DNA from: Octopus vulgaris
Lineage: Eukaryota
DNA length: 64,000 nt
Assembly: GCA_951406725.2 (NCBI GenBank)
Contig: OX597825.1
Location: forward strand, 39,556,001 to 39,620,000
Direction: 5' to 3'
Part shown: positions 18,626 through 62,670 of the stretch, one piece after another
Layout: each line of letters starts with the position of its first letter
Position numbering within the stretch: position 1 is the first letter of the stretch
The notes under the pieces: generated by a model
Databases searched by the model: none
Told to the model about the DNA's origin: nothing
The model's input: the letters and a program-made list of their open reading frames with translations, nothing else
Position numbers and translations under genes: made by a program

Positions 18626-19904
18626 CGAGGGACGTTCAATAAGTAATGCCTCTGACCCACTTGCAGTTGTTGAATTTTGCATGTGCAATCATTTATATCT
18701 CTATAGAGAAAGTGGCAAATTACAGCTCTGAATTAATTGTGGTTTCTGATTTACAGGTGTTTGAACCGAGTCAAGTGTGAAATGGAGCCTGTTGAGTGTC
18801 GAGCAGTGATCCGGTTTTTGTATTTGAAAGGACGCACACCACGGGAGACTTTTGATGAAATGAAAGTAACTTATGGTGATGATGCCCCATCATATGGCCT
18901 TGTAAAACGCTGGCATCGTGAATTCAAACATGGTCGGAACTCTGTGGATACTGCTCCCAGATCTGGTCGCCCCTTCTACCATTGATGAGGCATCTGTCCG
19001 TCAAGTTGAGGCTGCCATTTTGGAAGATCGACGCATAATTATTCGCCAAATAGCCCATGAGGTCAAGATTAGTACCGGGTCTGTGGAAACTATCATTCAT
19101 TACCATTTGCATATGCAAAAGGTGTCTGCCAGATGGATTCCCAGGTTGCTGACGCCTTTCCAGAAGCAAGAACGCGTCGAGTGCTCGAGGGTGAATTTGG
19201 AGATGTGCCAAGAAGATGAGTCAAAATTTTTCAAAAGACTGATTACACAGGATGAAACCTGGGTCCATCACGATGATTCAGAGACCAAAGCCCAGTCAAT
19301 GCAGTGGAAGCACCGTGACTCACCCCATCCAAAGAAGGCAAGGGTGTAGCCCTCCGCCGGCAAGGTCATGCTCACTGTCTTCTGGGACCAGGACGGACTA
19401 GTGATGACAGATTTCCTGGCAAAGGGTACCACAATTACAGGAGCCTATCATGCTTCACTTTTGAGGAAATTAAGAGAAGTTATCAAAATCAAGAGGCGGG
19501 GCAAGATCAGCAAAGGCATCCTCCTCCTGCAGGACAACGCTCCGGTCCACAACTCACTTGTCGCCAGATCAGAAGCACAGGCGTATGACTATGAACTCCT
19601 CCCCCATCCCCCTACTTTCCTGACCTTGCACCCTCTGATTTTCACCTCTTCCCAGTCATGAAGTTGTTTTTGAAAGGAAAGCGTTTCCCAGATGATGCAG
19701 CCTTGATTTCTGAAGTCACGTTCAGTTTGGAGGACCAAGCTAAGGTCTTCTCCAAAAACGGTCTCCAGAGCTGCATCAAACAATGGGAGAAATGCGTAAC
19801 TCTGGGTGGTTCCTATGTAGAAAAAGCCTAATAACTGTGCCAAGTTTCGTTGCTCTACTGCTATGGGAAGTGGGTCAGGGGCATTACTTATTGGACGCCC
19901 CTCG
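18626..19904 (+). mobile_element. Full-length mariner DNA transposon (1279 bp)
   Basis: TIRs cgagggacgttcaataagtaatgcctctgacccactt / aagtgggtcaggggcattacttattggacgcccctcg; TA target duplication on both sides. Confidence 0.95.
18782..19831 (+). pseudogene. Mariner DD34D transposase pseudogene
   Basis: MEPVECRAVIRFL, WIPRLL, TQDETW, LQDNAP and HPP..PDLAPSDF motifs spread over frameshifts, with a TAG at about 19347. Confidence 0.93.
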
Positions 19905-21338
19905 TATATACACAAACGTGTTGCACCAGTGACTTCAACAATGACACACCAATACAAACTCGCGCACACACATAGATACACATACATACAAATAAAAGGC
20001 AATGAATGTGTGCATATATGTATGCGTCTGTTGTTCACTGACAAAACTTCGTGCTCTATCACTTCTGTGAAATTTTGTCAGTGAACAGGTTGCTGTTTCA
20101 AAAGGAAGGAAATATTTTGACACAAATGAAATATTAATGTTGAAGTGAAACTAATCTTCCACGCTGCAATTGGTTTCTTTTTTTTTTCAGCACACGATCT
20201 CAGATCCAGTCACTTGCTATGCACGTACATCGCCGTGTTTCTTTAAGTCACTGTGAATAAATGCTAGCAATGAACTTCTCAGGCTCTCCAATATTTTAAT
20301 TTCTAAACAGAAACAATCGGGAGCAGGGACTGGGGTTGCCACGTTTCATAATTCTAAACTTTTCTCTTTATAGCATATAAAGGTATTTCTGGGAAACAAT
20401 TATTTAAAAACTTTAATACAAGCGCGAGTGATAAAGAAATGAAAAGGGTTGTTTTGAATGTCCTAGAAACAATAGCGAAATCGCCCTTAGATCACTCATT
20501 TTTCACTCCGAAAACATTATCAATTTTTTTTACCGAAAATTGTCTTCCAATCGTTTTGAAGTGCAAACAAATATTGGCCAAGTGTGGGATAATGAAGGAG
20601 CTGGGTGTAAAGAAAAGAATTTTCAAAACTTTTTCATATAAAGATGCTTGCCCTCAACCCCAAAATTTCGAAAGCTCTTAAATTTCTTTATAATCATAAT
20701 CGATGCCCTTGCAGGAGATTTGTATCAATGATCATAAAATGATATCCATCTTCCTGAAAGATATAAGGAAAAACAGTTAGATCGTTGGAATATTCGAAAC
20801 TCCTCTCTCTATCCCTCGGAAAAATTATTTCCAATAAATCTCTAAATACTCTGACGCGGCAACATTTAAGCAGTATTTGTAGACAATTTTCTTAAAAAGT
20901 AAGTATTTTTCTGGATATTACGAGGCAACAAAGCCGGGTGGCGTATACATCTGTAATAATGCGATTTTTCATTTCATATATATTTCCCTCATTGCTTGCA
21001 ATGTTCTCATTCTTCCCCTCTGTCTCACTATTACATATACACACACTGCAAAGCATACAAATGGGCTGCTGAATGAAATATCTATGTTGCTTTGAGTGAA
21101 AGATATAAACTTGACAAAATTCCCCCCCTCTTGTTGGACTACCGTAATGTTTGTTAAAAAAGGGAGATTATGACTTTGATAAAATAATGAAAGCAATAGT
21201 TACAAAGTAATTTATCACTTTTATACAAAGAAATAATTTGACGTAACATATAAAATTTCTTAGAATTGGAAATAAAATGTGAAAATATTATGGGGGCCAG
21301 CATAAAACCGCCCGGAGGGGCGTTCTTTCTGCAATAAT

Positions 21339-28763: not shown

Positions 28764-28807
<44 letters not shown>

Positions 28808-28827
28808 TAGTACCTCGGTTTTCGAAA

Positions 28828-31800
28828 AACTTGTTTCTTCATAGCCCACACGGGGCCTACATAGAGGGGTCAATAGAGCCTGATTTGGGGTTAGGCACAC
28901 AAAATGAGATTTAGAAATTTACAACGATGTCGAATGGAAATCGGATGGTAAATTCAAAACATGAAAACGAGGCGGGAGAATAGGTTTTAGTTCCGATCCC
29001 ACGAGCCCTGTTCCACTACCAACACCTTTTGGTAACCCTTCAGACATGTTTACGCAGTGTCTTTCACACACAGCATTCGTGCTACACGTGCCCATCTGTC
29101 TTTGTACATTCTCACTGACAGACCCACATTCTTTTTCAGGTGACTTGTGAAAAATCTCATCAAACCGAGGCCAGAGATGAAGCAGCCCATCACCAATCCT
29201 TTCATTCGCGACTTCCATATCACCTCTTTCACGATTGCTACTACCGCGAGAAAACAATTCTTACCTTCTTTCGTAAGGAAATCCGGTGGGTTAATTTTTA
29301 AAATTGACTCAGACGACAGCTGTACTATTCTTGCATCTAACAGCAGGTGTTCTGCATAAGCCCACACTTCCGGACTCTGAACAATAGCGTGCAGGATGTT
29401 TTCCCAGTTCTTCTCGCATCTTTCACAGGCCGATGTGCTGGGATGGCCGTGTCTAGTGAGCTTATCCCGAACGGGTAAGGTTCCTCCGTAACACAGCTGG
29501 AATTTAACCAGTGGTTTCGGCCTGAATGTCCTTTGGAACAGACTGTCTAACTAATTATTATCGAAACCTAAGGTCTGCCCTAGTGTGTTGACACATCCAG
29601 CCTCTACCAACCTGCTATAAAAAGATGCGGTTGTACCAAAACCACAGGCAATGCCCGAGCTACGGAACTGTAGGAGAGCCTTACGGCACACCGTATACCA
29701 AGTACCGAACCTCGATCTTCGACGAAACCAGCTTTCTCGTCCACCAAAACTAGTGAACTTGGGAAGCATCTGTTTCGCAAGCAGAGACCACACCCGTTCA
29801 CCATGCAGGTAAACACAGAGATTCCTCAACCTCAACGCATGTTTGGGCATAAACAGCCAATGCATCCCTAGCCCACGGTTTTTCACATCTGATAGAACGT
29901 CTCACAAATGGAGTCGAGTCCCTTCCACAAGAAGCTGAAGATCTGCCTCTCCAACTTGCTCAACCACGAATCTCGACAAGGATCGACGGTTACGCGGTAA
30001 ATGATAATCGCAGCGAGGAAAACATTGGCCACCTCCACCCGCGCATTCAAGGATAGCCACCGTCAAGACCAGGTCTTGACTACGAGGGTCACCTTGTTCG
30101 ACACCTCAGTTCAGTTCTTTTCTACATGGAGATCTGGGCCAAACCAGACACCCAGCAACTTAACAGGGCCCTCCGTCCAACTTCCCAGGACGCTATTCGC
30201 AGGCAACGACTTTCCCATCTAGGTGCCGAGTTGCAAGCCGACTTATTTTTCCCGGTTAATCTTTGCTCCTTCCACCGTCTCGTAAGCCTTAATAGATTCG
30301 CCTACCTTATGTAGGTGTTCCATCTCGGTTACGATGATGGTGATATCGCCCACATATGATGAAACTGATCCTCCACCACCTGGATTCGTTGAGATGTCAC
30401 TCAACTTTCGCAGCAACGGCTCAAGAGCCATCACGTACAAAGGTGCTGAGAACGGATATTTTTGGCGAACCGAACGTTTGATGCAGAACCGCTTCGAAAG
30501 ACAACCGTTCACCCGAACGATCGAGTTGATGTTATTGCACAATTGTATGATCTACCAAAGGGAGCCAAGACTCAGTCCGAACCGTGCGAGAGCGGACACC
30601 AGGTAATGATGGTCTATCCTATCGAACGCTTTAGCATGGTCTAAATGGACTAGTGCCCCACCCTTGGCAGAATTACTAACAAACACGTCTACGGTGTAGC
30701 GTATAAGATAAAGATTATCCTGGATGCTTTTGCCGGGCATAGCATATGTCTGTGTTTCACCTATCAGACCATCCGCGGCACTTGTCAATCTTTTTGCTAA
30801 CACCTTGGCCAAAATTTTCAACTTTGTACTTAGCAGAGTGATGGGCTGAAAGTCCTCTCTACTATTCCCCTTGTCCGGGTCCTTTCTAACCAGCGTCACC
30901 ACTCCTCGGGAATCAACCAATTCTGGTGCCAGTTTGCGTAAACACTAGCCAGTAGGTGTCCGAACAAGTCTGGCATATTCTTATATAGTTCGTACGGTAG
31001 ACGATCAAGACCCAGCGCCCTACCAACACCATAGTCTGCTATAGCCTCTATCATTTCCTCAGGTGTGATCGACCCTCCACAGAACTCCACATCCTGCCCC
31101 GTGAGACGCGGCAGCCAGTTACTTCTTTTCTTCCATGAACAGCGCTTCCAGGAGAGTGATTTTATCCTCTACCCCCAGCGTTACTGCCTCGACCAACCAT
31201 ACAGCATTCACCACCTCCAGTGGTATGTTGCTGATCTTTCTTCGTGACGCCCTCCTGCCCATATATATGGGCAGGAGTTCCACGTCGTCTGTTCTCAGTG
31301 GGTCTAGAGAATGGAGTTTTGCTTTTTCTGCAGACGTCATTCTGACCTTAACCGTTGCAAACCTTTTACCTCTTGTGAGGTATGTGATCTAGTGCCAAAA
31401 TGCCTTGACGCATCTTTCCACCTGCATCTCTACGACGTAGTCTGTGTTAATATCTTTCACTTTGTATGTTTTGTAGATAATCGTACTTTTATTTCTGAAA
31501 CTTCCCTTGTTAACATTCTTTTATGGTCTTCCAGTAATTCTGTGTTAATTTTTTTAACCTTTCCTCCCGCTCCTGCCGCGAAATCTATCTTTCTTGGCGT
31601 CTCTTCATTGTTTATTGCTATCTCGCCAACTGCCAGGCTTACTACCTCAATATTTCTTCTAATGTTCAATTTTTTTTTGTGAGTTTTTCGTGGTAGTTTC
31701 CTCCCTTCTGGGAGTTATAACTAGTGTACATCTTTCTTCTGAGTCGTCTTCCGACAGATACAACTCTGGAGTTATTAAGTTTTTCCATTTTAAAAAAATG

Positions 31801-32047
31801 GCACAAACAATATTTTTCAAAACATTTTTTGGCTGACGCCGCACAAATATATCCGACTTCTACAGAAAAAATAATAATTCCCTCGCGCGTGGGAATTAAC
31901 AATAACCTGCTTTTAAACAAATCAGCACAATTTTTTTACAATTCACAAACAACAATTCTTCAAACAATGAACAAATATCTCCCACCTTGAACCATTCAAC
32001 AGCAACACAGTAAACAACTCACATAGAAGGACGAGACCAACTAGCAA
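28828..32047 (-). mobile_element. Tx1/L1-clade LINE, internally deleted and decayed (ORF1 start joined to the RT/zinc-finger half of ORF2)
   Basis: Minus ORF pieces GLDRLPYELY, FQPITLL...KILAKVLAKRL, LDHAKAFDRIDH, SVRQ...SAPLYVMALEPL, YVGDITI, GAKINREK, RGLGM. Confidence 0.88.
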
Positions 32048-32059
32048 CGGCTTTCGAAC

Positions 32060-33798
32060 AACTTGTTTTGTTTTTACCCAAGGTGATCTAAATAAAGAAT
32101 TCTTTTATGGCACAAACATAAAATCAGGGAATTAAAGGTACAAAAAGGAAATCGAGCAAAGGAGAAACACAAAAGAAACGAATGAAAATATGTAAAGTAA
32201 TATAATAAAGCGTAATTCCCACTCGTTCTCCGGGGTCGATAGGTTACATTTGGACAGTTTTTCTCTATCTTTTAAAAAAAATCTCACATTTCTTTCCATA
32301 TTTTTAAAAGGAAAAGTTCACATTTTAATCATCTTTTTTAAAAATTGTTCATGTTATATTTAATATTATATGAAAACTTTGAAGTTTTCAAACTTTGAAC
32401 GTTCCACCACAGGTGGCATTGCATTACACAACACCGGCCCGTCAATCATCGCAACCAATCCATGGTAAGAATTCAAAATGTTATACTTTTCGAAGTTTAC
32501 CAGCACACATCACTCATTTTCCCCGAACTTCTCTTTGAGCAGTTTCACCCTTATCATATTCTTCCACTTAGATATCCTTCTCCCCGCCTCTACACTCTTC
32601 TTGTAATAAATCATGAATCCATTATTCTTGTAATCCTCCTTCTCCTCTGGTTTCTTCTCTACTTCATGCGTAAGTTTAGACGGCTCTTCACCTTTTTTGG
32701 ACGTCTTCTCAGCTTCTGCTGCCGATCCATGTGATTGTTCTCTAGTTCTTGCTTTCTTTCTTCTTTTGGGGTTAACAAATCCGTCACTCCTCTCCGTTGC
32801 CACTTTTGTTCTGTCTTCCTTCTCTTTTGTTTTATTTCGATCAGTTTTTCCCCCGACTCCATTTCTCATTCTTTATCTTCCACTTTCTCACTCTGTTGTG
32901 TATGCTCACTCTGCATATGCTCGTACATGGAGCACTTTGTCTTCATATGACCACAAATGTAGCAAGTGGGTCTATGTCCTTCCACAATCACCTGCAGAGA
33001 ACTCTCCTTCACAATCTCAATCTGGTAGGGACCATTTCTATATCTTCAAATGTGGCAAAAAGCCATATCCCCATCAGTTCAGGATATTGGTCCTTCCTAC
33101 AGGTCCTAGTTTCAGGTTGTCCTCAGTGGCATCCAGAAGAGCTGCCACAAGCCACTCTGTTTCAATTTCGGGTGACACTCTCGCTACCCTGATCCTCACA
33201 CTGCATCTTCCAATACCGTTGGTAGCAGCTTCAGATTGACCGACCTCAGGATAGTGGTGGAGTGTAAGGCCGCCTCCCGTTTGGTGCATCCCACATTTCT
33301 ACCGTGTCATACCTCTTCTCTCAGCTAACAAATGTTTGAATTATGTCTCCTACACATTCTTCTTGATTATGTCTCCTACACATGCCTCATCTTCTCCCGA
33401 CAACTTCTTTATTTTGTTTGTGGCAACCGCTTGTGTGCGGTACACTAATGTCGTGTCGTTTTTATTGTTCAGTCTCCAGCAGAGGGACCAGTGAAAGCGT
33501 CTCCCTCCTTCAGCACAACTTGTTAGATTTTTAGAACTTGCTCTATGTCAAACTCTCTCAGCTTTGCATCCAACGGCCTAACTGCTTTCGGCGCAGCGAT
33601 CTTTGTATATCTTTCTATGCAGCAAAAGATCAATTTTTCCCCTCCCACAATGGGGAGAAAAAGTTTAAGAAACAATAATAGCAGCAAATAAGAATACGCG
33701 TAAGTCGCTTCAACAGTAATAATAACAGTAATAACAACAGTAAGTCTCAAAGACAACCTTCCTCTTTCGCAACGTGGTCAAAAATGACTAACTCTTCG
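32060..33798 (-). mobile_element. LINE-derived element with decayed ORF1 only (HAL1-like)
   Basis: Minus pieces VRIRVARVSPEIETEWLVAAL, VEGHRPTCYICGH (zinc knuckle) and a K/E-rich tail; no RT before the next target-motif copy. Confidence 0.6.
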
Positions 33799-34579
33799 CT
33801 CGCTTTTCGAACGCCTCTGATCACGAGTAAATCCTGCTATATATATATATATATAAAGCAGGATTGATACGTGATCAGAGGCGTTCGTAAGCCGAGGTTC
33901 TACTGTATTAAATGAATATGAGAAAGACAGGAGATAAAGTACTACTATTGATTCGCGATGACAGTTGTTCCAAAACCGAGGTTCTACCCTCTCGCTCTCT
34001 CTCTCTCACTCCCTCTGCCTCTTTCTCTCCCTTTCTCTTTCTCTCTCTCTCTCTCTATATATATATATAGAGAGAGAGATATTTTGCTCTCAGTAATTAA
34101 AAATAGAACAAGATGAACTGGTTCTTCTCAAGGCCAAGTTCAGCGCACTCATTGATCTCTAGGAGTTGTAAACACATTTGACCTCTGCTGACTCCAATGG
34201 TGTGAGACCGCTTTTGTTTGTTCTATCACATTATTGCACAAGAATAACTATTGCTGATCACTTCACCATCTACCGATTCTATTTACAGACCCGTTGAATT
34301 TAATCTATTCACCAAGTTGTCTCGCTTGCTACTACTGTTCCCTTAAACACTCACATATTTATGATCATCTCAAGTACAAGTCAAAAGTTAAAACTAAACA
34401 ACATTCAATAATACCTTTTAATAATAAATGGAAATAATAGTCATAATGATGTTGATAATGATAATAACAATAATTTAGCCAAAACTCATGTCGGATCAGA
34501 GGAAATATTAACAATGACAAATGGAAGTAAATAAATGAAAATAATAATATCGGTGGTGGTGGTGGTGATGATGATGATC

Positions 34580-34843: not shown

Positions 34844-34916
34844 GGGCACTGCCTGTGATCGAACACGGAATCATGGCGTTTGTAGCCCGCGGTCTTAACC
34901 ACTACACCATATGCCC
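34844..34916 (-). mobile_element. tRNA-derived SINE head / tRNA-like remnant
   Basis: A box TGGTGTAGTGG and B box GTTCGATC on minus; stems poorly paired. Confidence 0.55.
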
Positions 34917-34934
34917 ATGGGTATAATAATGATG

Positions 34935-34970
<36 letters not shown>

Positions 34971-34996
34971 GTAATAATAATAATAATAATAATAAT

Positions 34997-36873
34997 TTCA
35001 TTTGGCATTTTCCAGGGTGACTCACTATCACCACTCTTCTTTTGTTTAGACCTAATACCTCTCTCGAAATTGCTCAATGACGCACAGTACGGATACAAAA
35101 TGTTGGATTAAAATATAAATCATCTCATTTACATGGATGATTTAAAGCTCTTTGCAAAAAATTACCAACAACCCAAGGGCTTACTAACGATTGTTAAACA
35201 ATTCAGCGATGATATCAGAATGCAATTTGACCTCGATAAATGTGCAAAAGCTACCTTTATCAAAGGAAAAATGACAGAAACATCTAACGTTTACCTCGAC
35301 CAGCAGAATGTCATAAAAGATTTAGATCCAGCGGAGAGCTACATGTACCTAGGAGTAATTGAAGGGGATGGAATAGGGCATTCAGTGATGAAGGAAAGGA
35401 TCAGGAGAGAATGTTATCGCAGAGTATGAGCAATACTCAAGACAGAGCTGAATGCAAGAAACAAGAGCGAAGCGATCAATGCTTTCGCCATACCAGTCGT
35501 GACTTACCGTTTCAATATCGTTAACTGGTCAATTACTGAAATATGTAATCTTGAGAGAAAAATACGAAAACTGTTGACAATGCATAGAATGCACCACCCT
35601 AAAGCAGATATAGAACGACTTTATCTGCCAAGAAAAGAGGGAGGCCGTAGACTTTTACAACTGGCAATAACAATGAAGATTGCTACAAATGGCCTAGACA
35701 CCAACCTGAAAATCTCTGAGGACTGGATGTTAAAACTTGCCTCAAAACATAAAGACAAGAAAGCATCATACTCAGTAACAAAACAGGCAAAAAAAAATCT
35801 AAGTAAATTCCAAATACAACAAATTTCGGAATTAGACACACAAGAAACAAGCACAGAAAAAGCTAAACGCATGACAACCCGTGCTAAAACAGCTGCTTTA
35901 GATATTCTGAATAATAAATGGCAAGAAAAACCTCTCTATGGCAAATACCCAAAGAGAGTGAATAATGCAGATTTTGACAAAGCCCTGACCCATCAATGGC
36001 TAATGGCCTCTGACTTAAAATCTGAAACCGAAAGGTTTATCATAGCAGCTCAAGATTAATGCCTACCTACAAAGAACTACAAGGCCAACATTTTAAAGAA
36101 CGGCAGTAACCCAACATGCCGTGTATGTCAACAACAAAATGAAACCATTGATCATGTTGTCTCCAAGTGCAGTCTTCTTGCACCTACAGAGTATCTCAAC
36201 AGGCATTATAGAGCTGCACAATATATTCACTGGGTAATTTGCAAAAGCCTGGACTTGCCACATGATAAAAACTGGTGGGAACACAAACCACCTCCAGTGC
36301 TTGAAAATTACCACATCTCACTCCTCTGGAATTTCACCTTTCAAACTGACAGAAAGATAGACGCGAATAGGCCAGACATCATATTGAAAGACTCCTGACA
36401 AAGAACATGCCTCCTCATTGATATGACTGTCCCCGTCGATATAAACGTATCTGTCAAGACCTACCAGAAACTGAGCAAATATAAAGATCTGGAAATAGAA
36501 ATCAGCAAAATGTGGAACCTGAAGACTAATACAATACCTGTTGTCATAGGTGCCCTAGGAATGATAGAAAAGGGGCTGATTGCTACCTAACCCAGATACC
36601 AGGAAACACAAAAATGGCAGAAATTCAAAAGATAGTGCTCATGGGAACTGCTCATATCCTACGCGACATACTTTCTATGTAATCTCAAGTTTTAAAACAA
36701 ACACAATTTTCGTATGTTCTTTTAGGCATTCACTAGTACAACACTAAGTATAAAAAACCAAATATATGGCACGCTAGGCATAACACCAACATGAACTTCC
36801 AACTTGTTGTCTCTTGAGGTCTCTGGGTGAGACTTGGTGCCAGCTTCTGCAAATGTAAAGCGAAAGTCAAACG

Positions 36874-36875
<2 letters not shown>
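34997..36875 (+). mobile_element. 5'-truncated Dong/R4-like non-LTR retrotransposon (RT plus REL endonuclease) in (TAA)n
   Basis: GIFQGDSLSPLFFCL, YMDDLKL, RLYLPRKEGGR, CRVC...HVVSKC, RPDIILKD, LIDMTVP, KYKDL; several stops and frameshifts; (TAA)n on both sides. Confidence 0.9.
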
Positions 36876-36943
<68 letters not shown>

Positions 36944-37007
36944 GTGGTAAGAAGGTAACAATAATAAAAATAACAATAACAATAATAATAACAATAATAA
37001 TAATAAT

Positions 37008-37083
<76 letters not shown>

Positions 37084-37104
37084 TTAATAATAATAATAAT
37101 AATG

Positions 37105-38545
<1,441 letters not shown>

Positions 38546-40570: not shown

Positions 40571-41979
40571 GAGTCATGTATGCACGTGAGACAAATATAT
40601 CTGTATACATATTTGAAAGTTTATGACGATTACTTAATGTAACCTTTAAAATGTGATTTTAATATTATTGTTCTTTTTAAATATTATGAAATATTTTATG
40701 GGGATGTTACTAAACTTTTGGGGATGGATATTTTTTCAAGTGTGTAAGCGCTTTCGTTAAGCCTTTTCAAACATACGTGCTCTTAATTATTTTCGTACTA
40801 GTGGTAGTGTTATTTCCGGTTTATTTCCGAACTGTTGTTTTGCTCATAAATATACTTTCATCATTGTTTATTATATAGAATGATGACTATTTTCGGCTTA
40901 GTTTCGGATTTAGAATTTTTATTAAGTAATCTTCTTTTGCCTTTTGTAGTTGTATATTTTCATCGTTTAATTTGTATAATGAGAATATTTAAAATTTTCC
41001 TTTTGCACAGATATATAGATGTTCACTTCATAGGACATTCCTAAGAGATGAATCCATAAATTACACGGATGGTCAGTTTCCTCCCTATCTCCCTATGTAG
41101 ATTTCATTGCATTGTGGGCATGTGATGCAGTTGATGAGGTTTTTTTTTTTATTTTGCAATTTATGTTTGCATTTATTTTTCATTTCTTCCCATTCTTAGG
41201 TCTTTTGGTTGTCCCTTGTTTAATTAATTCGCGTATCCCACAATAGTGGGTTTGTAGCATCGTTTCTTTTTTAAATGTGAATCACTTCATGTTAGGTGTT
41301 CGGCTTTACTAATCGTTGGAGATCTGGTGACTGACATAGAATTGGGATATTTCGTTTGGCTGAGTGTAGGATGCTGTTTCTATGATTGTGGATGACTAGA
41401 AACGGAATATTTTAATTTTTATTTTTATTTTCAGACCTAGCTAAAATATACACCCTACTTACATTCTTTTGCAAACCCTTACAAGATTCCATTACAAAAA
41501 TTTGACGCACGGCATTAGTAAGATTTTAATTAGTGGATAAATTTTGAACCTTTGACATTTATATTGTTATAGCAAATGACTTAATCCATTAAAACAAAAA
41601 CAAAAAAAATTACTACTAATCGCCATCCTAGACCTACCTACATCCTTTCCATGAACCGCTAAAAGCAATGGGATGATCTAGAATATACATATCTACTTGC
41701 AAATTTCTATATACGTGAATAAATTCAAAGCCATGATATAACCCCAAATTACATCAATAAATATTTCTCCTAAACTCAATTCTGTCACAACCGAGACTAC
41801 GAGCTAATTATCATTCCACACAAGCCAGCGTACTAAAGGAAGGTTTTAACTCAACGGACTAACCAGGCAAGATGAAATTCAGCGTCTCGCAGTCCGACGA
41901 TGCTTTAGCTGGTTTAAACTTCAAAATCACTGTCAATAATATTCTTGTTTATATACATATATATATATAATGATAGATA

Positions 41980-42519
41980 GATATTAATAGTTATCGCCAT
42001 ACCAATATGGCAGTCTATAAATATAAGACTAAAGCTGTCGCTGATTAGCTCCAAGAGGCCATCGCCTCCAGCTAGCTATATGACACACGAACCTGCGTCC
42101 ATTACAACCTTCGAAAAGAGGAGGTCAGCCGCTTCACCTTGCTAGTCATACATCTGCAAACATGTTTCAGGGTTGTTGCCCTTTATCAATGCAGCGTAGT
42201 CATAACCAGCAGGTGTCGCTACTGACCGTCTGTTCGAAGATTTTATTTACCTAGTTACAGTGGAATACATCCACTTGTTTTCAATAATAGAAATATTAAA
42301 ATTACTAGCAATGTGAAGCGGTGACCTCCCCTGTTCAAAGGTTTTAATGGTCGCAGGTCCGTGTGTCATATAGCTAGCTAGAGGCGATGGCCTCCTGGAG
42401 CTAATCAGTGACAGCTTTAGTCTTATATTTATAGACTGCCATATTAGTATGGCGATAACTATTAATATCCACCAACGCAGCCGTAATCTCCTTTAGAAAG
42501 ACTTAGTAATTTTAATATT
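41980..42519. repeat. Second family A locus (direct 41980-42307, inverted 42304-42519) with HHR motif at 42154-42194 (-)
   Basis: Highly similar to the 957-2337 unit; cleavage triplet mutated to GTT; flanked by (TA)n and (GATA)n. Confidence 0.9.
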
Positions 42520-42524
42520 TTTAT

Positions 42525-42572
<48 letters not shown>

Positions 42573-52215: not shown

Positions 52216-53180
52216 TATATATATATATATATATATTATTGGATTTAATAACATATCCATCTCATATGTGTGGGTAATTATAAATAATATGTTAATTTAT
52301 AATGACACCTATATATTATTTCTGTCGATATCTTCACATCGGCAAAGTATGCTCACTATCGCCGTACAGGGTCCTATCTGCCACATCCAACGTCAATTCA
52401 AAATAAATTGAATATTGCTAGAATATGTAGTCCCACGTACACTTCTTTGCGTAGATTTGTCCCTTGTATCAGTATATAATATATATATATATAATATTCT
52501 TTTCTTTTATATATGAATTATTTCTGTATTTTTAATAAACTCATTTTTGCATCTATTACTCCATAAAAATATTTCTTATATCCGCATTCACCATTACCTT
52601 TAATAATTTAGAAAATTGCTTATAAAATATTATAATAAATTTTTCACCTCTATGCCTAGCTAGATTCTTATCGCATATTGTAATTTAATATGCAACATAG
52701 TCAACCTACAAAATATTGAAAACTGCAATTTAAAAAAAAAAGAACTTTTTACGACCTATCTCTCCTACGTTGTTACTTTTTTTTCCTCAACCACTGAAAA
52801 ACACTTCTGCATCATCGAACGGTTTTTTTCATTAGTCTTAGCCATAGCAAATATTTTCTATCTTAATTCTCTAATATTAACAATTATTCTTAGATCTTTA
52901 TCTTATATTTCTTTCACACAAACGAATATCGTTTTTAACTAAAAAATATTGTTTTCTCATTATATTAAGCTATTATATACTCACTCGTTACCCGTAACTA
53001 TGTTTTTTTTCCTTTTAAATCCAACTAACTTAAATAAAACTATATTAACTATATTAATTATTTTCTATTTCTTCTTCTCGGACAGGAAATTTCTTAAAAT
53101 AAATTATTTAACTATACACCATACATAATAATTCTTATAAATAAGTCATAAATATAAATATAAATATTAACTTAAATATA

Positions 53181-53602
53181 GGCGCAGGAGTGGCTGTTTG
53201 GTAAGTAGCTTGCTAACCAACCACATGGTTCCGGGTTCAGTCCCACTGCGTGGCATCTTGGGCATGTGTCTTCTGCTATAGCCCCGGGCCGACCAATGCC
53301 TTGTGAATGGATTTGGTAGACGGAAACTGAAAGAAGCCTGTCGTATATATGTATATATATATAAGTGTGTGTGAATATGTTTGTGTGTCTGTGTTTGTTC
53401 CCCTAGCATTGCTTGACAACCGATGCTGGTGTGTTTACGTCCCCGTCACTTAGCGGTTCGGCAAAAGAGACCGATAGAATAAGTACTGGGCTTACAAAGA
53501 ATAAGTCCCGGGGTCGAGTTGCTCGACTAAAGGCGGTGCTCCAGCATGGCCGCAGTCAAATGACTGAAACAAGTAAAAAGAGTAAAAAGAGTAAAAAAGA
53601 GT
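53181..53602 (+). mobile_element. Full-length tRNA-derived SINE with CORE-like segment (octopus OR/OK-type by recollection)
   Basis: Head ggcgcaggagtggctg...gggttcagtccc, internal microsatellite, tail aaacaagtaaaaagag repeats; further copies elsewhere in the window. Confidence 0.85.
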
Positions 53603-54526: not shown

Positions 54527-55309
54527 TATATAGCGACGTTCGTACCCTCGTTGGCCTTATGTAAGTATATATATATATATATATATATACTTTGATACTT
54601 TGATAGGTTTCGGCCATTATTGGCCCAGGCCATGTCTAACTTAATAGCACCACCTGTATATATATATACATATGAAATTAATAATGCAATACGAGTGTAT
54701 TACTTTCCAGTAAAAGATAGCCCATAAGGGTAAAATTATACATATAAAGGTAGATAAATGGTACAACAAGGCGCCAATATTTACTGTAAAATAACAATCG
54801 AAATAAATACGACGCTATTGTATAGCTTCACAGGAAAAATGCAAAAACGCAAAAACGTTTTGAGCCAGTGCACTTCGGCAGAAAGGAAGTAGATGAAACA
54901 ATTACCGGGAGAATGAAAAAGATGTTGAGTTCAGTGGTCCAACATGGTCAATGGTTGGAAATAAAGCGTGCGAATGCAACGGATATAATAATAAAGAGAG
55001 GGTTAATGAAGGGGAGATAATTCCTTGTTATCTCTAGAAGAGAAGGTGATGAAAATCTTACAGATTATATGTGGTTAGACATATAATAATAGTTGCTGCA
55101 CAAAGATCACTTCTACAAATTGTACACTCTCATAGATATAGTCTCTTTAACATTTTGGGTTATACATAAGGGTAGATTTATAGTATTTCCTGTTTTTTCT
55201 TATTATTATTAATATTATTTTTATTTATTTATCCATCTTATTATTACTGCTTCTAACGTTTTTTCAACTTTATATTAACACCGATTAATATAATTCATAT
55301 ATACGCTTT

Positions 55310-55696
55310 ACTTAGTTGATTCAATCACTTGATTGGGGCCATGCTGCAGCACCGGCTTTAGTCAAACAGATCAACTCCAGGACTTATTCTTTGTAAGGTT
55401 AGTACTTATTATATCGGTATCTTTTGCCGAACCGCTAGATTACTGGGACACAAACACATCAACATCGGTTCTCAAGCGATGTTGAGTGGACAAACACAGA
55501 CACACAAACATGCACTGACATATATATATATATATATATACACACGTATATACGCATATACGACGGGCTTCTTTCAGTTTCTGTCTACCAAATCCACTCA
55601 CAAGGCTTTGGTAGGCCCGAGTGCTACGCAGTGGGACTGATCCCGGAACCATGTGGTTGGTAAGCAAGCTACTTACCACACAACCACTTCTGCGCC
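55310..55696 (-). mobile_element. SINE, same family as 53181-53602
   Basis: Reverse-complement similarity throughout. Confidence 0.85.
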
Positions 55697-55904
55697 TATG
55701 TTCTTGATTTTTAATTATAAAACGTATAAATTTTAAACACATACATATGTCGTATAATATACATATTATTATACACAGGTATATGCATATATATATGTGT
55801 GTATATATATATCTGCATATGTACACATGTGTTTATATACATATATACTCAGATCTTTTTATCTATATTCGTAGATTTTTTTCTGTTAAATACATCAGTA
55901 TACT

Positions 55905-56306
55905 TATTCGTTGATTTGTATCAGCCATTTTAACTGCTAGCATGCTGGAGCAACACCTGTAGTGGAACAATGCCCTCAGGACTTACACTTTGTAAGCCTA
56001 ATACTTATTCTATCGGTCACTTTTACCGAACCGCTAAGTTACGTGGACGTAGCACACCAGCATCGGTTGTCAAGCAATGTTGGGGGAGGGGACACAGACA
56101 CACAACCACACACATATACATAAACACACATAAATACATATATAGGACGGCCACTTTTAGTTTCCGTCTACCAAATCCACTCATAAGTCTTTGGTCGGCC
56201 CGAAGCTATAGTAGAAGACACTTCCCCAAGGTGCCACGCAGTGGGACTGAACCCAGAACCATGCGGTTGGTAAGCAAGCTACTTAACACACAGCTACACC
56301 TGCGTC
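55905..56306 (-). mobile_element. SINE, same family as 53181-53602
   Basis: Reverse-complement similarity throughout. Confidence 0.85.
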
Positions 56307-56626
56307 TATATGATTATAATTAAATTAATTTCTAATTTTTTACCATGTTATTTACATGTTAATATTACCATTCAAAACGATTGTATGCATGGAGTAACAT
56401 TTGAAAAAAAATTAAACAATTTGTCTTCTCCATCTTTAATTGATTGTTGAGTTTCTATAGGGTACGTTTTCTATAAATGATTATAACACACTTAATATTT
56501 GTAAGATTTTCATAATCGCGAAGTACTTATAACACTAAGCGACCAATGTAATATAAAGAATCCTTATGAGAAATCGACATTTGGATTCCCCCAATGTAAA
56601 GGATGAATTAAAACTGAACCATTTCT

Positions 56627-57039: not shown

Positions 57040-58837
57040 ATATATATATATATATATGTATGTATGTGTATTTTTTACCATATGTATGTGTTTCGTTTCC
57101 ATGCGTACAAGTAACACAGGAAACATTATAAATAGATACCAGGGTAGTAAGAAATTCATATAAGTACCAGGGATATAACAAACTTCTTATAATGTTAGAG
57201 ATTTCAAGGTTTAGTGAAATGTTGTTGTATTACATAGATAAATTGAAAAATGGATTTAAATGCAAGTTATATTTAAATCTTTATATTAGCGACATATGTT
57301 TCTAAGAAATCATTGGTATTATTCCGGAAATAATAAAATAATGTAAAACAATGCAATCTTCTAAGCAGTGGTAAAAAAGAGAAACAAAATGCATCGATAG
57401 GATATTTTAACCTAATGTTATTACTGTATATATGATGAAAGGAACGCTGGTAAGTCACTTTAAAAAAAATCGTTAAACGATATAATGTCAAAGGCAATTT
57501 ATAGAAAGAGAAGTAATAGGAAGAAAGAAAGTAGCAGTAAACTAGAAGTGGAGAAATATAGTGCGATATGTGATTAGGAATAAGGATTTAATAGCTTTTG
57601 AGTGATTACTAAAATAACTAATATATATTAAATAGATATATTTAGTGGAAATGAAATGCAAGAAGACTGTTAAAGGTCGAATGTTATAGACTGATAGAAA
57701 TTACTTATAGGAACTAAAGGTATGTTTTTTTCCAATGATTGCAACGGTACTCATGTTCTTTAAACGTATTTACAAGATGATTCTCTGAGAACAGGATGAA
57801 ATACAGTTCATCGTTACAGAGGAAGCAAAAAGATTCACCTTTATCATAAGGAATATTCCATTCCAAATCAAATTGTTTACTATGTTCCTTTTGAGACCAA
57901 ATTAATTTACTAAGCCCAGTATTGTTGCGCTTATATATATATATGTCTAAATGAAGAGTAATGGTTAGATATTATTTCGGACAACTGTGATGAAGAACTA
58001 AGTATATATAAAAAAACTAATAACGGCCGTACCGGAAGAAAATTTACATTGATAAACAGAATTTCTAGTCTTAGAATTACTACTAAGGAAACGAATGGAA
58101 TTGGAATTTATATCCAAAGTACTAATATTTTTGTTATTATTGTTCAAAGGAAGGTTAATGTTAATAATGTCAATGTTATTATTTTCATTAAGTGAATTTA
58201 CATTTAACAACTTATTGTTATGCGAAGATATGATTTCTAAAAGGTTTTTGGAATTTGAATAATCTATTCTGATTCGGTGTAGATTGATAATGGAATTCTA
58301 TCTTGAATCTTTTAGGAAATTCTTATCTATAGCTTCACGAAACTGATAAGGGAGATTGGAGTTAATCTGTTTAACATGTGGAATTATCAACGAAACTGTT
58401 TTGCTAAGACGTATCTTGTTAATAGAGGAATTATCTTTAAAAGTCCTAGATGTACTTTTATAACGAAAAAGGGTCTTAAAGAACAGTTATCTTCTTTTCG
58501 CTGCAAAATCACATTTCTCGATTTAGTGTTGTTATTCGAGCTAAAATGTAAATTTGTCTTAAACTTATGACTTGATTTCACGTCCCGATTAATAGAGGTA
58601 GAATTAATGTCAATAGAGTTAATATAGATAATTCTTTTCTTTATAGTCTGTTTTAAGTAAGGCAGCGTTACAAATTCTGCCTTTATCCTTTTAATAGCTT
58701 TTGAGTGATTACTAAAAGAGCTAATATATATTAAATTAGTTGAAGGTTTATGGTATGGGAAATATAAATCATTATGTAAGTCAAGGATAATATCCAAATA
58801 GTTGGCTTTAGTTATATCACCGAGGATAAAAATTTGC

Positions 58838-59171
58838 AAACGGTCTCCCTTTATCGAAAACCGGTGATTCCCGTACGCCGAAGACAGGCAAATACCTAGA
58901 AACTGCAGTCCGTGCGTATCACTTAGGTTGACGAGAGAGGGATGACCTCCCTTTGCAAGTACCATAAGGACACAGAAAGTGTGCATAAAGCCAGCTGGAG
59001 ACGATGATCTCCTGGGGCTAAAAGCTACAGTAACACCCACTCTTAGTGGTTAGCCATATTGAGATGGCTAGTATACTTTACGTAATAATATTGTTGTTAC
59101 TGATAAACATAGTAGTGCATGTACGTTCTAATATATTTATATACGTATATGACGCATGGTATATCCAATGT
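58838..59171 (+). repeat. Family B pLTR copy inserted in inverted orientation inside the RT
   Basis: Reverse complement of 60854-61186. Confidence 0.9.
58873..58915 (+). ncRNA. Type-I hammerhead motif with CCGAAGA core (family B)
   Basis: gtacg-CCGAAGA-c agg caaata cct a-GAAAC TGCA GTC-cgtgc. Confidence 0.65.
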
Positions 59172-60493
59172 TTAATATCCATGTTTCGGAAAAAAACCAA
59201 TCTGTATGTAACGATTTGTAATTTTTGGTTTGAAGCATTTTCAAGGTAGAGTAGATAATAATCAGGGTATATACCTCCATTGATGTTTGAGAATTGGTCA
59301 GCCATCCCATAAAGGATATATATTGACCAAATCAGCGACATGAAAACCGTCGGGCGTATATTTACGGATCCACAGCTTGTTATCAAATTTAATAATAGAT
59401 TTTCTAACATGACATTAATTTCAACCTTGATGAGACCTGCTTTGCTGTGTGCGAGCCAGATTGCCTAGTTGAAAACATTTAGGTTAATGTAGCAATAGTA
59501 ACTGGAAATGTCGAACAGGATAAACTTAGTACAATTCTTGTTATTAATAGCATTAAACCAGTCGACCACTTGGAATGAATTAGACCATAAATTAAGCTTT
59601 AACTTTTTTAACTAATGTAGGAATAAATTTATCTAGAATATTTTTGCTAAGTACACCGATACCAGAGCTGGGTTGAGTTATTAAAAAAAATTTGGTTGTG
59701 ATCTTTAAAAATAAAACGAGATTTTTTTAACGGTAAGTCATATTTCTCTATAATTTTCTTAGTTGGCATTCCTGATTGCACTTTTACCAGTAATCCTATA
59801 ATTCTTTTGTATTTCTTTTCTAAGCAATTCTAGGTAGTAATCCTTGAGAACCAGTATAAGTTTCCTGTTTTATCCGATTGAACCAGTATCCCATCTATGT
59901 TATGAATTTCTTGGTGATATTGTGAAGATACCTCAGCTGTTTATTCCTTAAGGGTGAACGTTGGAATTTCACATTCTTCTCGATGGAATTGTTTTTAGAT
60001 TTACACAATTTCATGAATTCGGAAGTTAGATCGTTCGAGAGTTCTTTAATGTCTTTATTGTCGAAGAAGAAAGCAAGCGATTAATATGGTTAATAAAGGC
60101 GTTTGTCTTACTAATGAGCTGCTTTAGGAAAACTTTCTTTGGGAGGAATGGGTTCATCCTTAAGAGATGCATTTATATCAAATAACTTCATGTGTTTACT
60201 ATTTTCTTTGCAGGTTATGAAATAATACCAATATTGTATTCTAAACATACATGGGAAGTATACAGATTTTAATAATACTTGTGTTTAACACCATATATAT
60301 ATATATATATATATAAATGGAAAAACAAATTTAGTTTGTTCGTCAACTTATGAAATTATAATGGATTATTTATTCAATGTACAAATGAGAATATCAAAAG
60401 TATACAAAATATTATATAAATCAATAGATAAGATAATAATACAAATACAGATTTTAAAATTCATATAATAAATTAATGAAATCCTAAAATTAT

Positions 60494-60628: not shown

Positions 60629-60853
60629 TATAATTAACTTTAAAAAATATTAATAATAATATTAATATACTAAATATGATGCACGTATTACTTAATATAT
60701 AAAAACAAACAATAAACAAATACCCAAATACACACACACACATATATATACATATAAAAATACATATATACATACACATACATACATAAGCAAAGCATAT
60801 ATACTATTCACAGGCACAAAGTACATTAATGAACACCATTAAACAATATATTA

Positions 60854-61400
60854 CATTGGATATACAATGCGTCATATACGTATATAAATATATTAGAACG
60901 TACATGCACTACTATGTTTATCAGTAACAACAATATTATTACGTAAAGTATACTAGCCATCTCAATATGGCTAACCACTAAGAGTGGGTGTTACTGTAGA
61001 TTTTAGCCCTAGGAGATCATCGTCTCCAGCTGGCTTTATGCACACTTTCTGTGCTCTTATGGTATTTGCAAAGGGAGGTCATCCCTCTCTCGTTAACCTA
61101 TGTGATACGCACGGACTGCAGTTTCTAGGTATTTGCCTGTCTTCGGCGTACGGGAATCACCGGTTTTCGATGAAGGGAGACCGTTTACTAATACTTATTT
61201 ATTGTTTTTCCAGTAACTTCCGCACTGATTTCGAAAAACTGTCTACAGTAACACGAGAGAGGGATAGCCTCCCTTTGCAAATACCATAAGGGCACAGAAA
61301 ATGTGTCTAAAGTGAGCTGTAGACGATGATCTTCTGGGGCTAAGAGCTACAGTAACACCCACCCTTAGTGGTTAGCCATATTGAGATGGCTAGTATACCT
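60854..61400 (-). repeat. Family B pLTR upstream of the Naiad ORF (HHR at 61109-61151, -) plus partial inverted copy at about 61253-61400
   Basis: Same sequence as 58838-59171; fold-back arrangement. Confidence 0.85.
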
Positions 61401-61856
61401 TAACAATATTATTGTATTAACAATAATCTTCAACAGGTCATACATACTATAGTAATGTCTACTAACATATCAAAAATTCACGATGCAAGATTCAATATAT
61501 ATATATTCATACAAATACATATATATATACATGCTCATACAAAATTCTATGCGTGTAAGCATATGCTGAGACAATCAGAATATAGTTCTCTATTTATACA
61601 TCCACGTAAAGCAAACAAATTCAATTTTAAAATCCAAAAGAGTAATTCCAAACTTTTTGTTAAAGCTGAATTTAACCCACAAACTTTATGCTTCTGTTTT
61701 ATGTATATTAAAGATTTTAATATATATTGGGGGTTAGGGAGCGGTCATTGTAAATCATAAGCTATTTCCAAATTGTTAATTCATTTGAACTTATCCGCTT
61801 GATCTGTTGTAAACAATAGGAGGTCTGATTATTAGTTAAATAAATCATATTACACT

Positions 61857-62251
61857 TACTCTCTTTTACTCTTTTACTTGTTTCAGTCATTTGACTGCGG
61901 CCATGCTGGAGCAACGTCTTTTAATCGAGTAAATCGACCCCAGGACTTATTCTTTGTAAGCCTAGTACTTATTCTATCAGTCTCTTTTGCTGAACCGCTA
62001 CGTTACGGGACGTAAACACACCAGCATCGGTTGTTAAGCAATGGTGGGGGGGGGACAAACACAGACACACAAACACAGACACACAAACATATACATACAT
62101 ATATATATACATATAAACGACGGGCTTCTTCCAGTTTCCATCTACCAAATCCACCCACAAGGATTTGGTCGGCCCGAGGCTATAGTAGGTACTGAACCCG
62201 GAACCATGTGGTTGGTAAGCAAGCTACTTACCACACCACCACTCCTGCGCC
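61857..62251 (-). mobile_element. SINE, same family as 53181-53602
   Basis: Reverse-complement similarity including the tail. Confidence 0.85.
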
Positions 62252-62670
62252 TATTAGTTTATCTAAACTAAATAAGAGACCATTCATTTCTTTGTTAAGA
62301 CTTGGATAGATATTTACATAAATAGACATTTATAACTCCAATCATACTTTATACCATCGAAATGCATATGTACTCACATACATAGCTATGCATACGTTAA
62401 CAAATATACATACGTTGCACACCGTAAACGTACATCCAATGAAGTACATATAAATATACGTATGCATCAATTCCGATATATACAAGCATACTTGCATCCA
62501 TGTGAATGTACATAATCTTGCATAACGTCAATAAATATATAAATATATATAAACACAGTCCCTCTTACAATCCAAATATACGGACACATGTACACTTTCA
62601 AACAAGGCAAAAGTACTTTTGGTTTCTCAGTGTGAAATGAAAGTAATTTTTTCCATACAAAGAATGAAAT

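What the first reader, a model, noticed from the sequence alone, without database searches (positions are those of the whole stretch)
28805..33986. Two Tx1-like elements inserted in tandem at the same motif within a MITE TIR
Seen: the TIR motif occurs three times, as ctcggttttcgaa (28814), cggctttcgaac (32048) and ctcgcttttcgaac (33799). It brackets two same-orientation LINE-derived elements, both abutting it with aacttgttt. Removing them reconstitutes a TA-flanked palindromic Tigger-like MITE. Established: Tx1-clade LINEs are often sequence-specific, and Xenopus Tx1L/Tx2L target DNA transposons. Inference: a cephalopod Tx1 family parasitises a pogo/Tigger MITE TIR, the motif copies being target-site duplications. 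The extra TIR copy at 33964-33986 makes the exact nesting ambiguous.
Basis: partly seen in the sequence, partly recalled or inferred. Interest (0 to 1): 0.7.

Follow-up and report, generated by a model that had tools for sequence, protein, structure and literature searches.

The report
Two retrotransposons stacked in Tigger MITE
Two old, broken Tx1-like retrotransposon copies sit head to tail at one spot inside a tiny Tigger-type DNA transposon, likely because a sequence-preferring enzyme cut the same site twice, a habit known from frogs and crocodiles and here likely seen in an octopus-type genome.

Summary
A TA-flanked 116-bp palindromic MITE (TIRs 28805-28827 and 33883-33905) is split by two minus-strand elements. 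The inner 12-14 bp of its TIR recur at all three junctions as target-site duplications. The TIR matches a published Tigger-like MITE end at 21 of 22 bases, and empty copies exist in contigs of two organisms. Element 1 (3.2 kb) has RT and zf-RVT but no endonuclease; a 52%-identical relative falls in an Atlas cluster named Tx1. Element 2 (1.7 kb) has no ORF2; its LINE origin rests on structure and an ORF1-like remnant without any database hit. Duplication lengths favour element 2 first, then element 1. The stack is old, seen once, and has orthologous pieces in two other organisms. The extra TIR is a separate decayed arm, but it leaves the junction register uncertain by 4 bp. The decisive test, flanks of other copies, could not be done: no genome is held and the read tables were truncated. 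Tx1 elements targeting piggyBac, mariner and Harbinger transposons, and tandem insertions around a duplication, are published. A Tigger target in a mollusc was not found in print. Verdict: likely a new member of a known kind.

The parts
28765..28804 (.). (TA)n run whose last TA serves as the MITE's left target-site TA
   Evidence: sequence
28805..28827 (+). Left 23-bp TIR of a Tigger-type MITE; its inner 12-14 bp are also the left target-site copy
   Evidence: 21 of 22 identical to Rhodnius MITE_109 TIR; 17-19 of 23 to three mollusc and scorpion Tigger TIRs
28828..32047 (-). Element 1, 3220 bp: decayed Tx1-like LINE with its 5' end kept and an internal deletion (first 4 bp may be MITE in the second register)
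29050..31114 (-). ORF2 remnant of element 1: RT and C-terminal zf-RVT, with stops and frameshifts; starts at about residue 425 of 1145-aa relatives, so no endonuclease
   Evidence: Pfam RVT_1 E 3e-21, zf-RVT E 3e-5; 46-52% identity to P0017
31115..31790 (-). Likely N-terminal ORF1 remnant of element 1, joined directly to the ORF2 remnant
   Evidence: translation; faint likeness to element 2's ORF, E 0.014; no Pfam hit; inference
32048..32059 (+). Middle target-site copy (12 bp, 1 mismatch to the TIR core; none at that base in organism B)
   Evidence: table 3, position 32051
32060..33798 (-). Element 2, 1739 bp: GT-rich 5' end, decayed ORF1-like frame with a zinc-knuckle-like motif near 32930-32965 and a Lys/Glu-rich tail, A-rich 3' end; no ORF2
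   Evidence: no hit to an ORF2 profile of 40 relatives; related copies in X1, X4, X10
33799..33812 (+). Right target-site copy (14 bp)
33813..33882 (+). MITE interior: 25-bp subterminal arms around a (TA)n spacer
   Evidence: inverted repeat I1
33883..33905 (-). Right 23-bp TIR, followed by TA at 33906-33907
33947..33989 (-). Separate, decayed arm of the same MITE family (78% to the right arm; terminal CAG and TA lost; no partner in the window)
   Evidence: repeat D11

Best explanation
Two decayed elements sit in tandem inside a Tigger-type MITE, with the inner TIR bases repeated at each junction, likely because a Tx1-type endonuclease that prefers this TIR sequence nicked the same site twice and each target-primed insertion would duplicate 12-14 bp. 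Shown: the anatomy, the empty MITE elsewhere, the Tigger TIR, the RT of element 1 and the missing domains. Inferred: the plus strand was nicked at, or 4 bp inside, the inner TIR edge. Element 2 came first (14-bp duplication). The left copy kept the whole TIR and so stayed a target, and element 1 then entered it (12-bp duplication). Element 2 was likely an ORF1-only passenger moved in trans, and element 1 lost its endonuclease before or after insertion. The MITE serves as a multicopy safe haven, as Tx1D and Mariner-N4_AMi do for vertebrate Tx1 elements.
For: Two elements with no DNA alignment to each other share one insertion point and orientation. The duplicated motif is far above chance. The middle copy in organism B equals the TIR core (table 3, 32051). 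Empty MITEs exist in X1 and X4 (table 5c, 6 of 12 shown rows). TIR and TA match Tigger. The nick context is not the T-tract/A junction that PMC1950540 gives for L1. The closest long relative P0017 has the Atlas top hit 'Transposon TX1 uncharacterized 149 kDa protein family', score 0.98, and the window RT groups with P0017, P0003 and P0004 at 98/97, apart from plant rows. Order: the right copy carries the TIR's CT before the core, the middle copy carries AA. Precedent: Tx1-Mar, Tx1-9_AMi, Tx1 in Tx1D, and tandem SINEU-3 around a duplication.
Against: One locus only; no second junction of either element was read. At 32051 and 32081 only the locus or its orthologue has depth (table 3), so no other copy of element 2's junction was laid. 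One X1 contig joins the RT region at 30552 through 27 letters to a TA run (table 5c), a related copy whose upstream side is not the MITE. Neither element has an endonuclease to inspect. Element 2 has no database hit. The register is uncertain by 4 bp. The tree holds no labelled Tx1L, Keno or animal L1 row.
Confidence: 0.65

Rival explanations
1. Relaxed preference: the endonuclease likes a short motif (for example around TTCGAAC or CGAC) that is common in the genome or belongs to another repeat. The MITE TIR is only one of many sites, and the second insertion reused the site that the first had duplicated.
For: Large summed depth over the RT region against little depth over both junctions (table 2); the RT copy abutting a TA run (table 5c); PMC4494074 reports only 13-23% target flanking for SINEU-1 and SINEU-2. 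Rfam gave no RNA-gene match at gathering score in the region, so another target is not named.
Against: The site falls at the inner edge of a conserved 23-bp TIR, and two unrelated elements use the same bond.
Confidence: 0.22
2. The motif is part of the elements' termini (3' transduction from a master copy inside a MITE), so the repeats are not target-site duplications.
For: Both 3' ends share AACTTGTTT next to the motif, and their last 120 bases align weakly (19 of 1000 shuffles reach the score).
Against: The third copy stands at element 2's 5' side and runs on into the MITE interior. Removing the insert restores a TA-flanked palindrome that exists empty elsewhere. Left of element 1 stands the entire TIR with its TA.
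Confidence: 0.06
3. Chance nesting or a single chimeric event: one composite RNA or template switch, or later rearrangement, put both pieces here.
For: The window is repeat-rich, and both elements are damaged.
Against: A template switch or deletion would not leave a TIR-core copy between the two elements. Both keep their own 5'-like and 3'-like ends, and they are not duplicates of each other.
Confidence: 0.07

Closest known systems
Tx1-Mar LINEs and SINEU-3 in crocodilian Mariner-N4_AMi (Kojima 2015, PMC4494074; passages and sections 14 and 15 read)
   Same: Tx1-clade elements prefer a non-autonomous Tc1/mariner-group DNA transposon; tandem insertions sandwich a duplication of about 16 bp; non-autonomous passengers share the target.
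   Different: Here the target is a Tigger/pogo TIR in a likely mollusc, the passenger is ORF1-like rather than snRNA-derived, and family-wide preference is untested.
Xenopus Tx1L in Tx1D (cited in PMC4494074; Christensen 2000 not held; Tx2L and the composite Tx1C recalled)
   Same: A LINE inserted in a non-autonomous DNA transposon that keeps both ends.
   Different: Tx1D is piggyBac-derived. No amplified composite is seen here: the middle junction is covered by one contig per run.
Tx1-9_AMi in Harbinger transposons (PMC4494074, section 15)
   Same: Fixed position near a DNA transposon end.
   Different: About 300 bp inside there; at or within 4 bp of the TIR edge here.
Tigger-like MITE_109 of Rhodnius (PMC4678618, table passage) and Tigger elements of Pomacea, Radix, Euprymna and Mesobuthus (PMC9219625, supplementary table S1 rows)
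   Same: TA duplication and a 22-23-bp TIR starting CAGT and ending CGAA(C); 21 of 22 and 17-20 of 23 identical.
   Different: This MITE is only 116 bp, palindromic along 48 bp, with a microsatellite spacer; no transposase link was tested.
HAL1 (half-L1), ORF1-only non-autonomous L1 derivatives (PMC5753468, passages)
   Same: Element 2 has a 5' end, an ORF1-like frame and a 3' tail but no ORF2.
   Different: HAL1 is described there for mammalian L1. Element 2 may be a single deleted copy, and its ORF1 identity has no database support.

Membership tests
Tx1 clade (element 1) | Non-LTR RT of the L1/Tx1 group with C-terminal zinc-binding domain | tested here: met
   RVT_1 and zf-RVT; full-length relative P0198 has human L1 ORF2p as best PDB hit
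Tx1 clade (element 1) | RT phylogeny with Tx1L, Keno and Kibi rather than L1 | tested here: inconclusive
   Atlas names the top cluster of P0017 'Transposon TX1' (automatic name); the tree of 24 rows has no labelled Tx1 or animal L1 reference
Tx1 clade (element 1) | N-terminal APE endonuclease | tested here: not met
   Absent from this copy; present in 42-45%-identical relatives P0039 and P0198. The copy is a deletion derivative, not an intact member.
Tx1 clade (element 2) | ORF1 with zinc knuckle, related to Tx1 ORF1 | tested here: inconclusive
   Knuckle-like motif with shortened spacing (its Tx1 likeness is recalled); no Pfam, Atlas or local hit
Sequence-specific Tx1 targeting a DNA transposon | Most independent copies flanked by the same target at the same position | not testable with these tools
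   No genome held; 24 of 2217 loose-end rows shown, none at the termini; collection scans empty
Sequence-specific Tx1 targeting a DNA transposon | Target-site duplication of 10-25 bp made of target sequence | tested here: met
   12 and 14 bp (or 16 and 18 bp) of TIR sequence
Tigger (pogo) MITE | TA duplication and a short TIR like Tigger's | tested here: met
Tigger (pogo) MITE | Multiple dispersed non-coding copies | tested here: met
   Diverged empty copies in X1 and X4 (table 5c); copy number not measurable
Tigger (pogo) MITE | Partner transposase element with the same TIR in the host | not testable with these tools
   no genome held
HAL1-like ORF1-only family (element 2) | No ORF2 remnant | tested here: met
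HAL1-like ORF1-only family (element 2) | Several independent copies with the same ORF2-less structure | tested here: inconclusive
   A second, diverged contig in X4 spans 32214-32475 across the ORF end into the 3' region, and a 32192-33028 join occurs in three runs, but no second full copy was read

The most novel reading that the evidence does not exclude
A cephalopod Tx1 lineage, with an ORF1-only satellite family, homes on the inner half of the Tigger TIR. That motif is conserved from molluscs to arthropods and is presumably where the transposase binds. Inserting at the TIR edge leaves both TIRs whole, so the LINE keeps a reusable target, stacks in arrays, and could ride or follow Tigger elements between genomes.
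Probability: 0.2. Interest if true: 0.6.

Novelty: new member of a known kind. Interest (0 to 1): 0.33.

Why it matters
If the preference holds genome-wide, it extends the 'Tx1 parasite of DNA transposons' habit from frogs and crocodilians to an invertebrate and to the Tigger/pogo group, a sign of repeated retargeting of Tx1 endonucleases. It would also add a new APE endonuclease specificity for study. As it stands it is one old, dead, nested locus with a well-known precedent.

Tried and rejected
No whole genome is held. Junction pattern in metagenomes: 0. TIR pattern in viral and prokaryote collections: 0. Related loci: none confirmed. Protein search with the C-terminal piece: none; with the short RT piece: 1 plant hit. 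Raw-read run X13 was uninformative: 594 reads laid, 95% running on unlike, depth in 5 of 30 bins. Summed contig depth was not taken as copy number, as the tool warns, and the MITE bin includes a TA run. Rfam gave 17 sub-threshold miRNA hairpin matches only, so a small-RNA-gene target was not supported. The 5' ends of the two elements are no more alike than shuffles (424 of 1000). Tandem duplication of one element was rejected. The CGAAC in the X1 30552 contig was considered as a duplication and rejected, since it reads as LINE coding sequence. Earlier findings of the scan: none. Literature searches found no Tx1 family reported in Tigger TIRs or with a stated target in cephalopods. PMC13282606 lists 80 L1-Tx1 consensus families in Octopus vulgaris; 'target' and 'nested' do not occur in its main text. 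Repbase, subscription papers and the supplements of PMC4494074 could not be seen and may hold such a family.
Full report
Observation. Aligned on the TIR, the left and middle junctions read motif then AACT TGTTT, and the right one reads motif then GCCT CTGATCACG. The 12-bp core with at most one mismatch occurs 4 times in 64 kb, all in this region; 0.007 are expected in 5.2 kb on one strand. Removing 28828-33812 yields a 116-bp palindrome with TA on both sides and arms matching at 41 of 48.

The MITE. The left end matches the TIR of the Tigger-like MITE_109 of Rhodnius at 21 of 22 bases, with the same TA before it (PMC4678618, table passage). It matches 23-bp Tigger TIRs of Pomacea, Radix and Mesobuthus at 17-20 of 23, and the same core is listed for Euprymna (PMC9219625, main-text passages and supplementary table S1). 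Those 23-bp TIRs end in CGAAC, so the duplicated motif is the inner half of the TIR. Contigs of runs X1 (organism A) and X4 (organism B) join 28822-28831 directly to 33815-33875 with diverged interiors (6 of the 12 rows shown, of 44, table 5c). The empty MITE is therefore real and multicopy. The extra TIR at 33964-33986 is part of a 41-bp arm 78% like the right arm. It lacks the terminal CAG and TA, lies beyond the closing TA at 33906, and has no partner in the window.

Element 1 (28828-32047, minus). It carries RT (Pfam E 3e-21) and zf-RVT, broken by stops and frameshifts, and is 46-52% identical to P0017 over all three blocks. Against full-length relatives of 1145-1153 aa, which carry an endonuclease, the match starts near residue 425. 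A profile of 40 full-length relatives finds nothing for positions 1-432. Upstream lie a likely ORF1 piece and a GT-rich 5' end, so this is an internal deletion, not a 5' truncation. Organism C has a contig across that join (30791-31851, 15 differences, table 8). The Atlas puts P0017 nearest a cluster named after Transposon TX1, and the tree groups the window RT with P0017, P0003 and P0004 at 98/97. No labelled Tx1 or animal L1 row was in the tree, so the clade call is likely, not proven.

Element 2 (32060-33798, minus). It has no ORF2 remnant. Its frame holds a knuckle-like motif and a Lys/Glu-rich tail, which I recall as typical of Tx1 ORF1. Pfam, the Atlas and a local search found nothing. 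Its likeness to element 1 is faint: protein E 0.014, 3' ends reached by 19 of 1000 shuffles, 5' ends by 424 of 1000, and no BLASTN match. A few related copies exist: a diverged X4 contig spans 32214-32475, and a 32192-33028 join is seen in all three contig runs. It may be a HAL1-like ORF1-only family (PMC5753468, passages) or a deleted copy.

Duplications, order and age. In organism B a 2288-bp contig covers 31793-33837 with 42 differences and then jumps to 30353. It has T at 32051, which makes the middle copy equal to the TIR core (tables 3 and 8). Organism C has matching pieces of both elements. The stack thus predates the split of these close relatives. The right copy shares 14 bp with the TIR, including CT before the core; the middle copy shares 12 and has AA there. 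Had element 1 come first, element 2's duplication would have copied AA. So element 2 likely came first, and element 1 entered the left copy, which still had the whole TIR. This order rests on two bases.

Register. AACT may belong to the MITE: the extra arm reads TIR then AACT (21 of 24 with the left junction, against 18 of 24 for the right arm), and several empty copies align through 28831 or read TGACT. But the right duplication and the right arm both read GCCT. The duplications are thus 12 and 14 bp ending at the TIR edge, or 16 and 18 bp with A-rich tails ending AAACA. The order argument holds in both.

Mechanism. By established target-primed reverse transcription, the plus strand was nicked at the left junction of each element and the minus strand 12-18 bp further left. 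The site is not the poly(T)-A junction that PMC1950540 describes for L1 (passages). Two unlike elements at one bond point to a shared sequence-preferring endonuclease, acting in trans at least for element 2 if it was born without ORF2. This step is inference; neither copy holds an endonuclease.

Results against. No second junction of either element was seen. At 32051 and 32081 only the locus or its orthologue has depth. One X1 contig runs from the RT region at 30552 to a TA run. The loose-end table showed 24 of 2217 rows and the joint table 15 of 189, none at the termini. The raw-read run was uninformative. I laid 4 of the 24 runs listed. No genome is held, and six collection scans found nothing. 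Family-wide specificity is untested.

Comparison. PMC4494074 (passages; sections 14 and 15 read whole; supplements unavailable) reports Tx1 in the piggyBac element Tx1D, Tx1-Mar in Mariner-N4_AMi, Tx1-9_AMi in Harbinger elements, and tandem SINEU-3 copies sandwiching a duplication. The locus works like these. Six searches found no Tigger-targeting or cephalopod case, but Repbase and subscription papers are not searchable. The host is probably an octopus-type cephalopod: low GC (34.5%), dense microsatellites, and a SINE and a TAA-embedded LINE whose family labels I recall. PMC13282606 (passages and supplement rows) lists L1-Tx1 and Dong-R4 among octopus repeats. No call tested the host. PMC3845634 was read in passages and added only a pogo MITE TIR starting CAGTA.

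Verdict. A real, well-formed nested insertion, likely a new member of the known class of Tx1 elements that target DNA transposons. Interest 0.33.

Noticed in passing
window 34899-38430 (+): Fragments of another non-LTR retrotransposon set in long (TAA)n runs; one piece hits zf-RVT. The Dong/R4-like label is recalled.
   Followed up: partly
window 53175-53594, 55302-55702, 55904-56317, 61856-62262: Four copies of a 400-bp tRNA-head SINE, recalled as an octopus family. The copy printed ends GAAACAAGTAAAAGAG, sharing AAACAAGT with both element 3' ends; post hoc and probably chance.
   Followed up: no
window 914-2355 and 41959-42568: Tandem and inverted copies of a repeat of about 360-420 bp, 87-93% alike; an assembly gap of 100 N lies at 259-358.
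   Followed up: no
window 18877-20077: Frames that read like a decayed mariner transposase (recalled motif; no Pfam hit for the piece sent).
   Followed up: partly
window 58390-59464 (-), inside inverted repeats 58826-59178 / 60848-61198: Frames that read like a Penelope-type RT (recalled; no Pfam hit), with 96%-identical inverted copies nearby.
   Followed up: partly
window 31252-31277: A perfect 26-bp palindrome inside element 1's ORF1-like part, about 140 bp from the deletion join.
   Followed up: no
window 33343-33385: A 17-bp direct repeat with 27-bp spacing inside element 2.
   Followed up: no
window 30354-31792: Missing in the organism B orthologue, whose contig jumps from 31793 to 30353 (table 8).
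   Followed up: no
window 32139-33445: One X1 contig of depth 341 goes back from 33445 to 32139, hinting at a tandem array of an element-2-like unit elsewhere (table 5).
   Followed up: no
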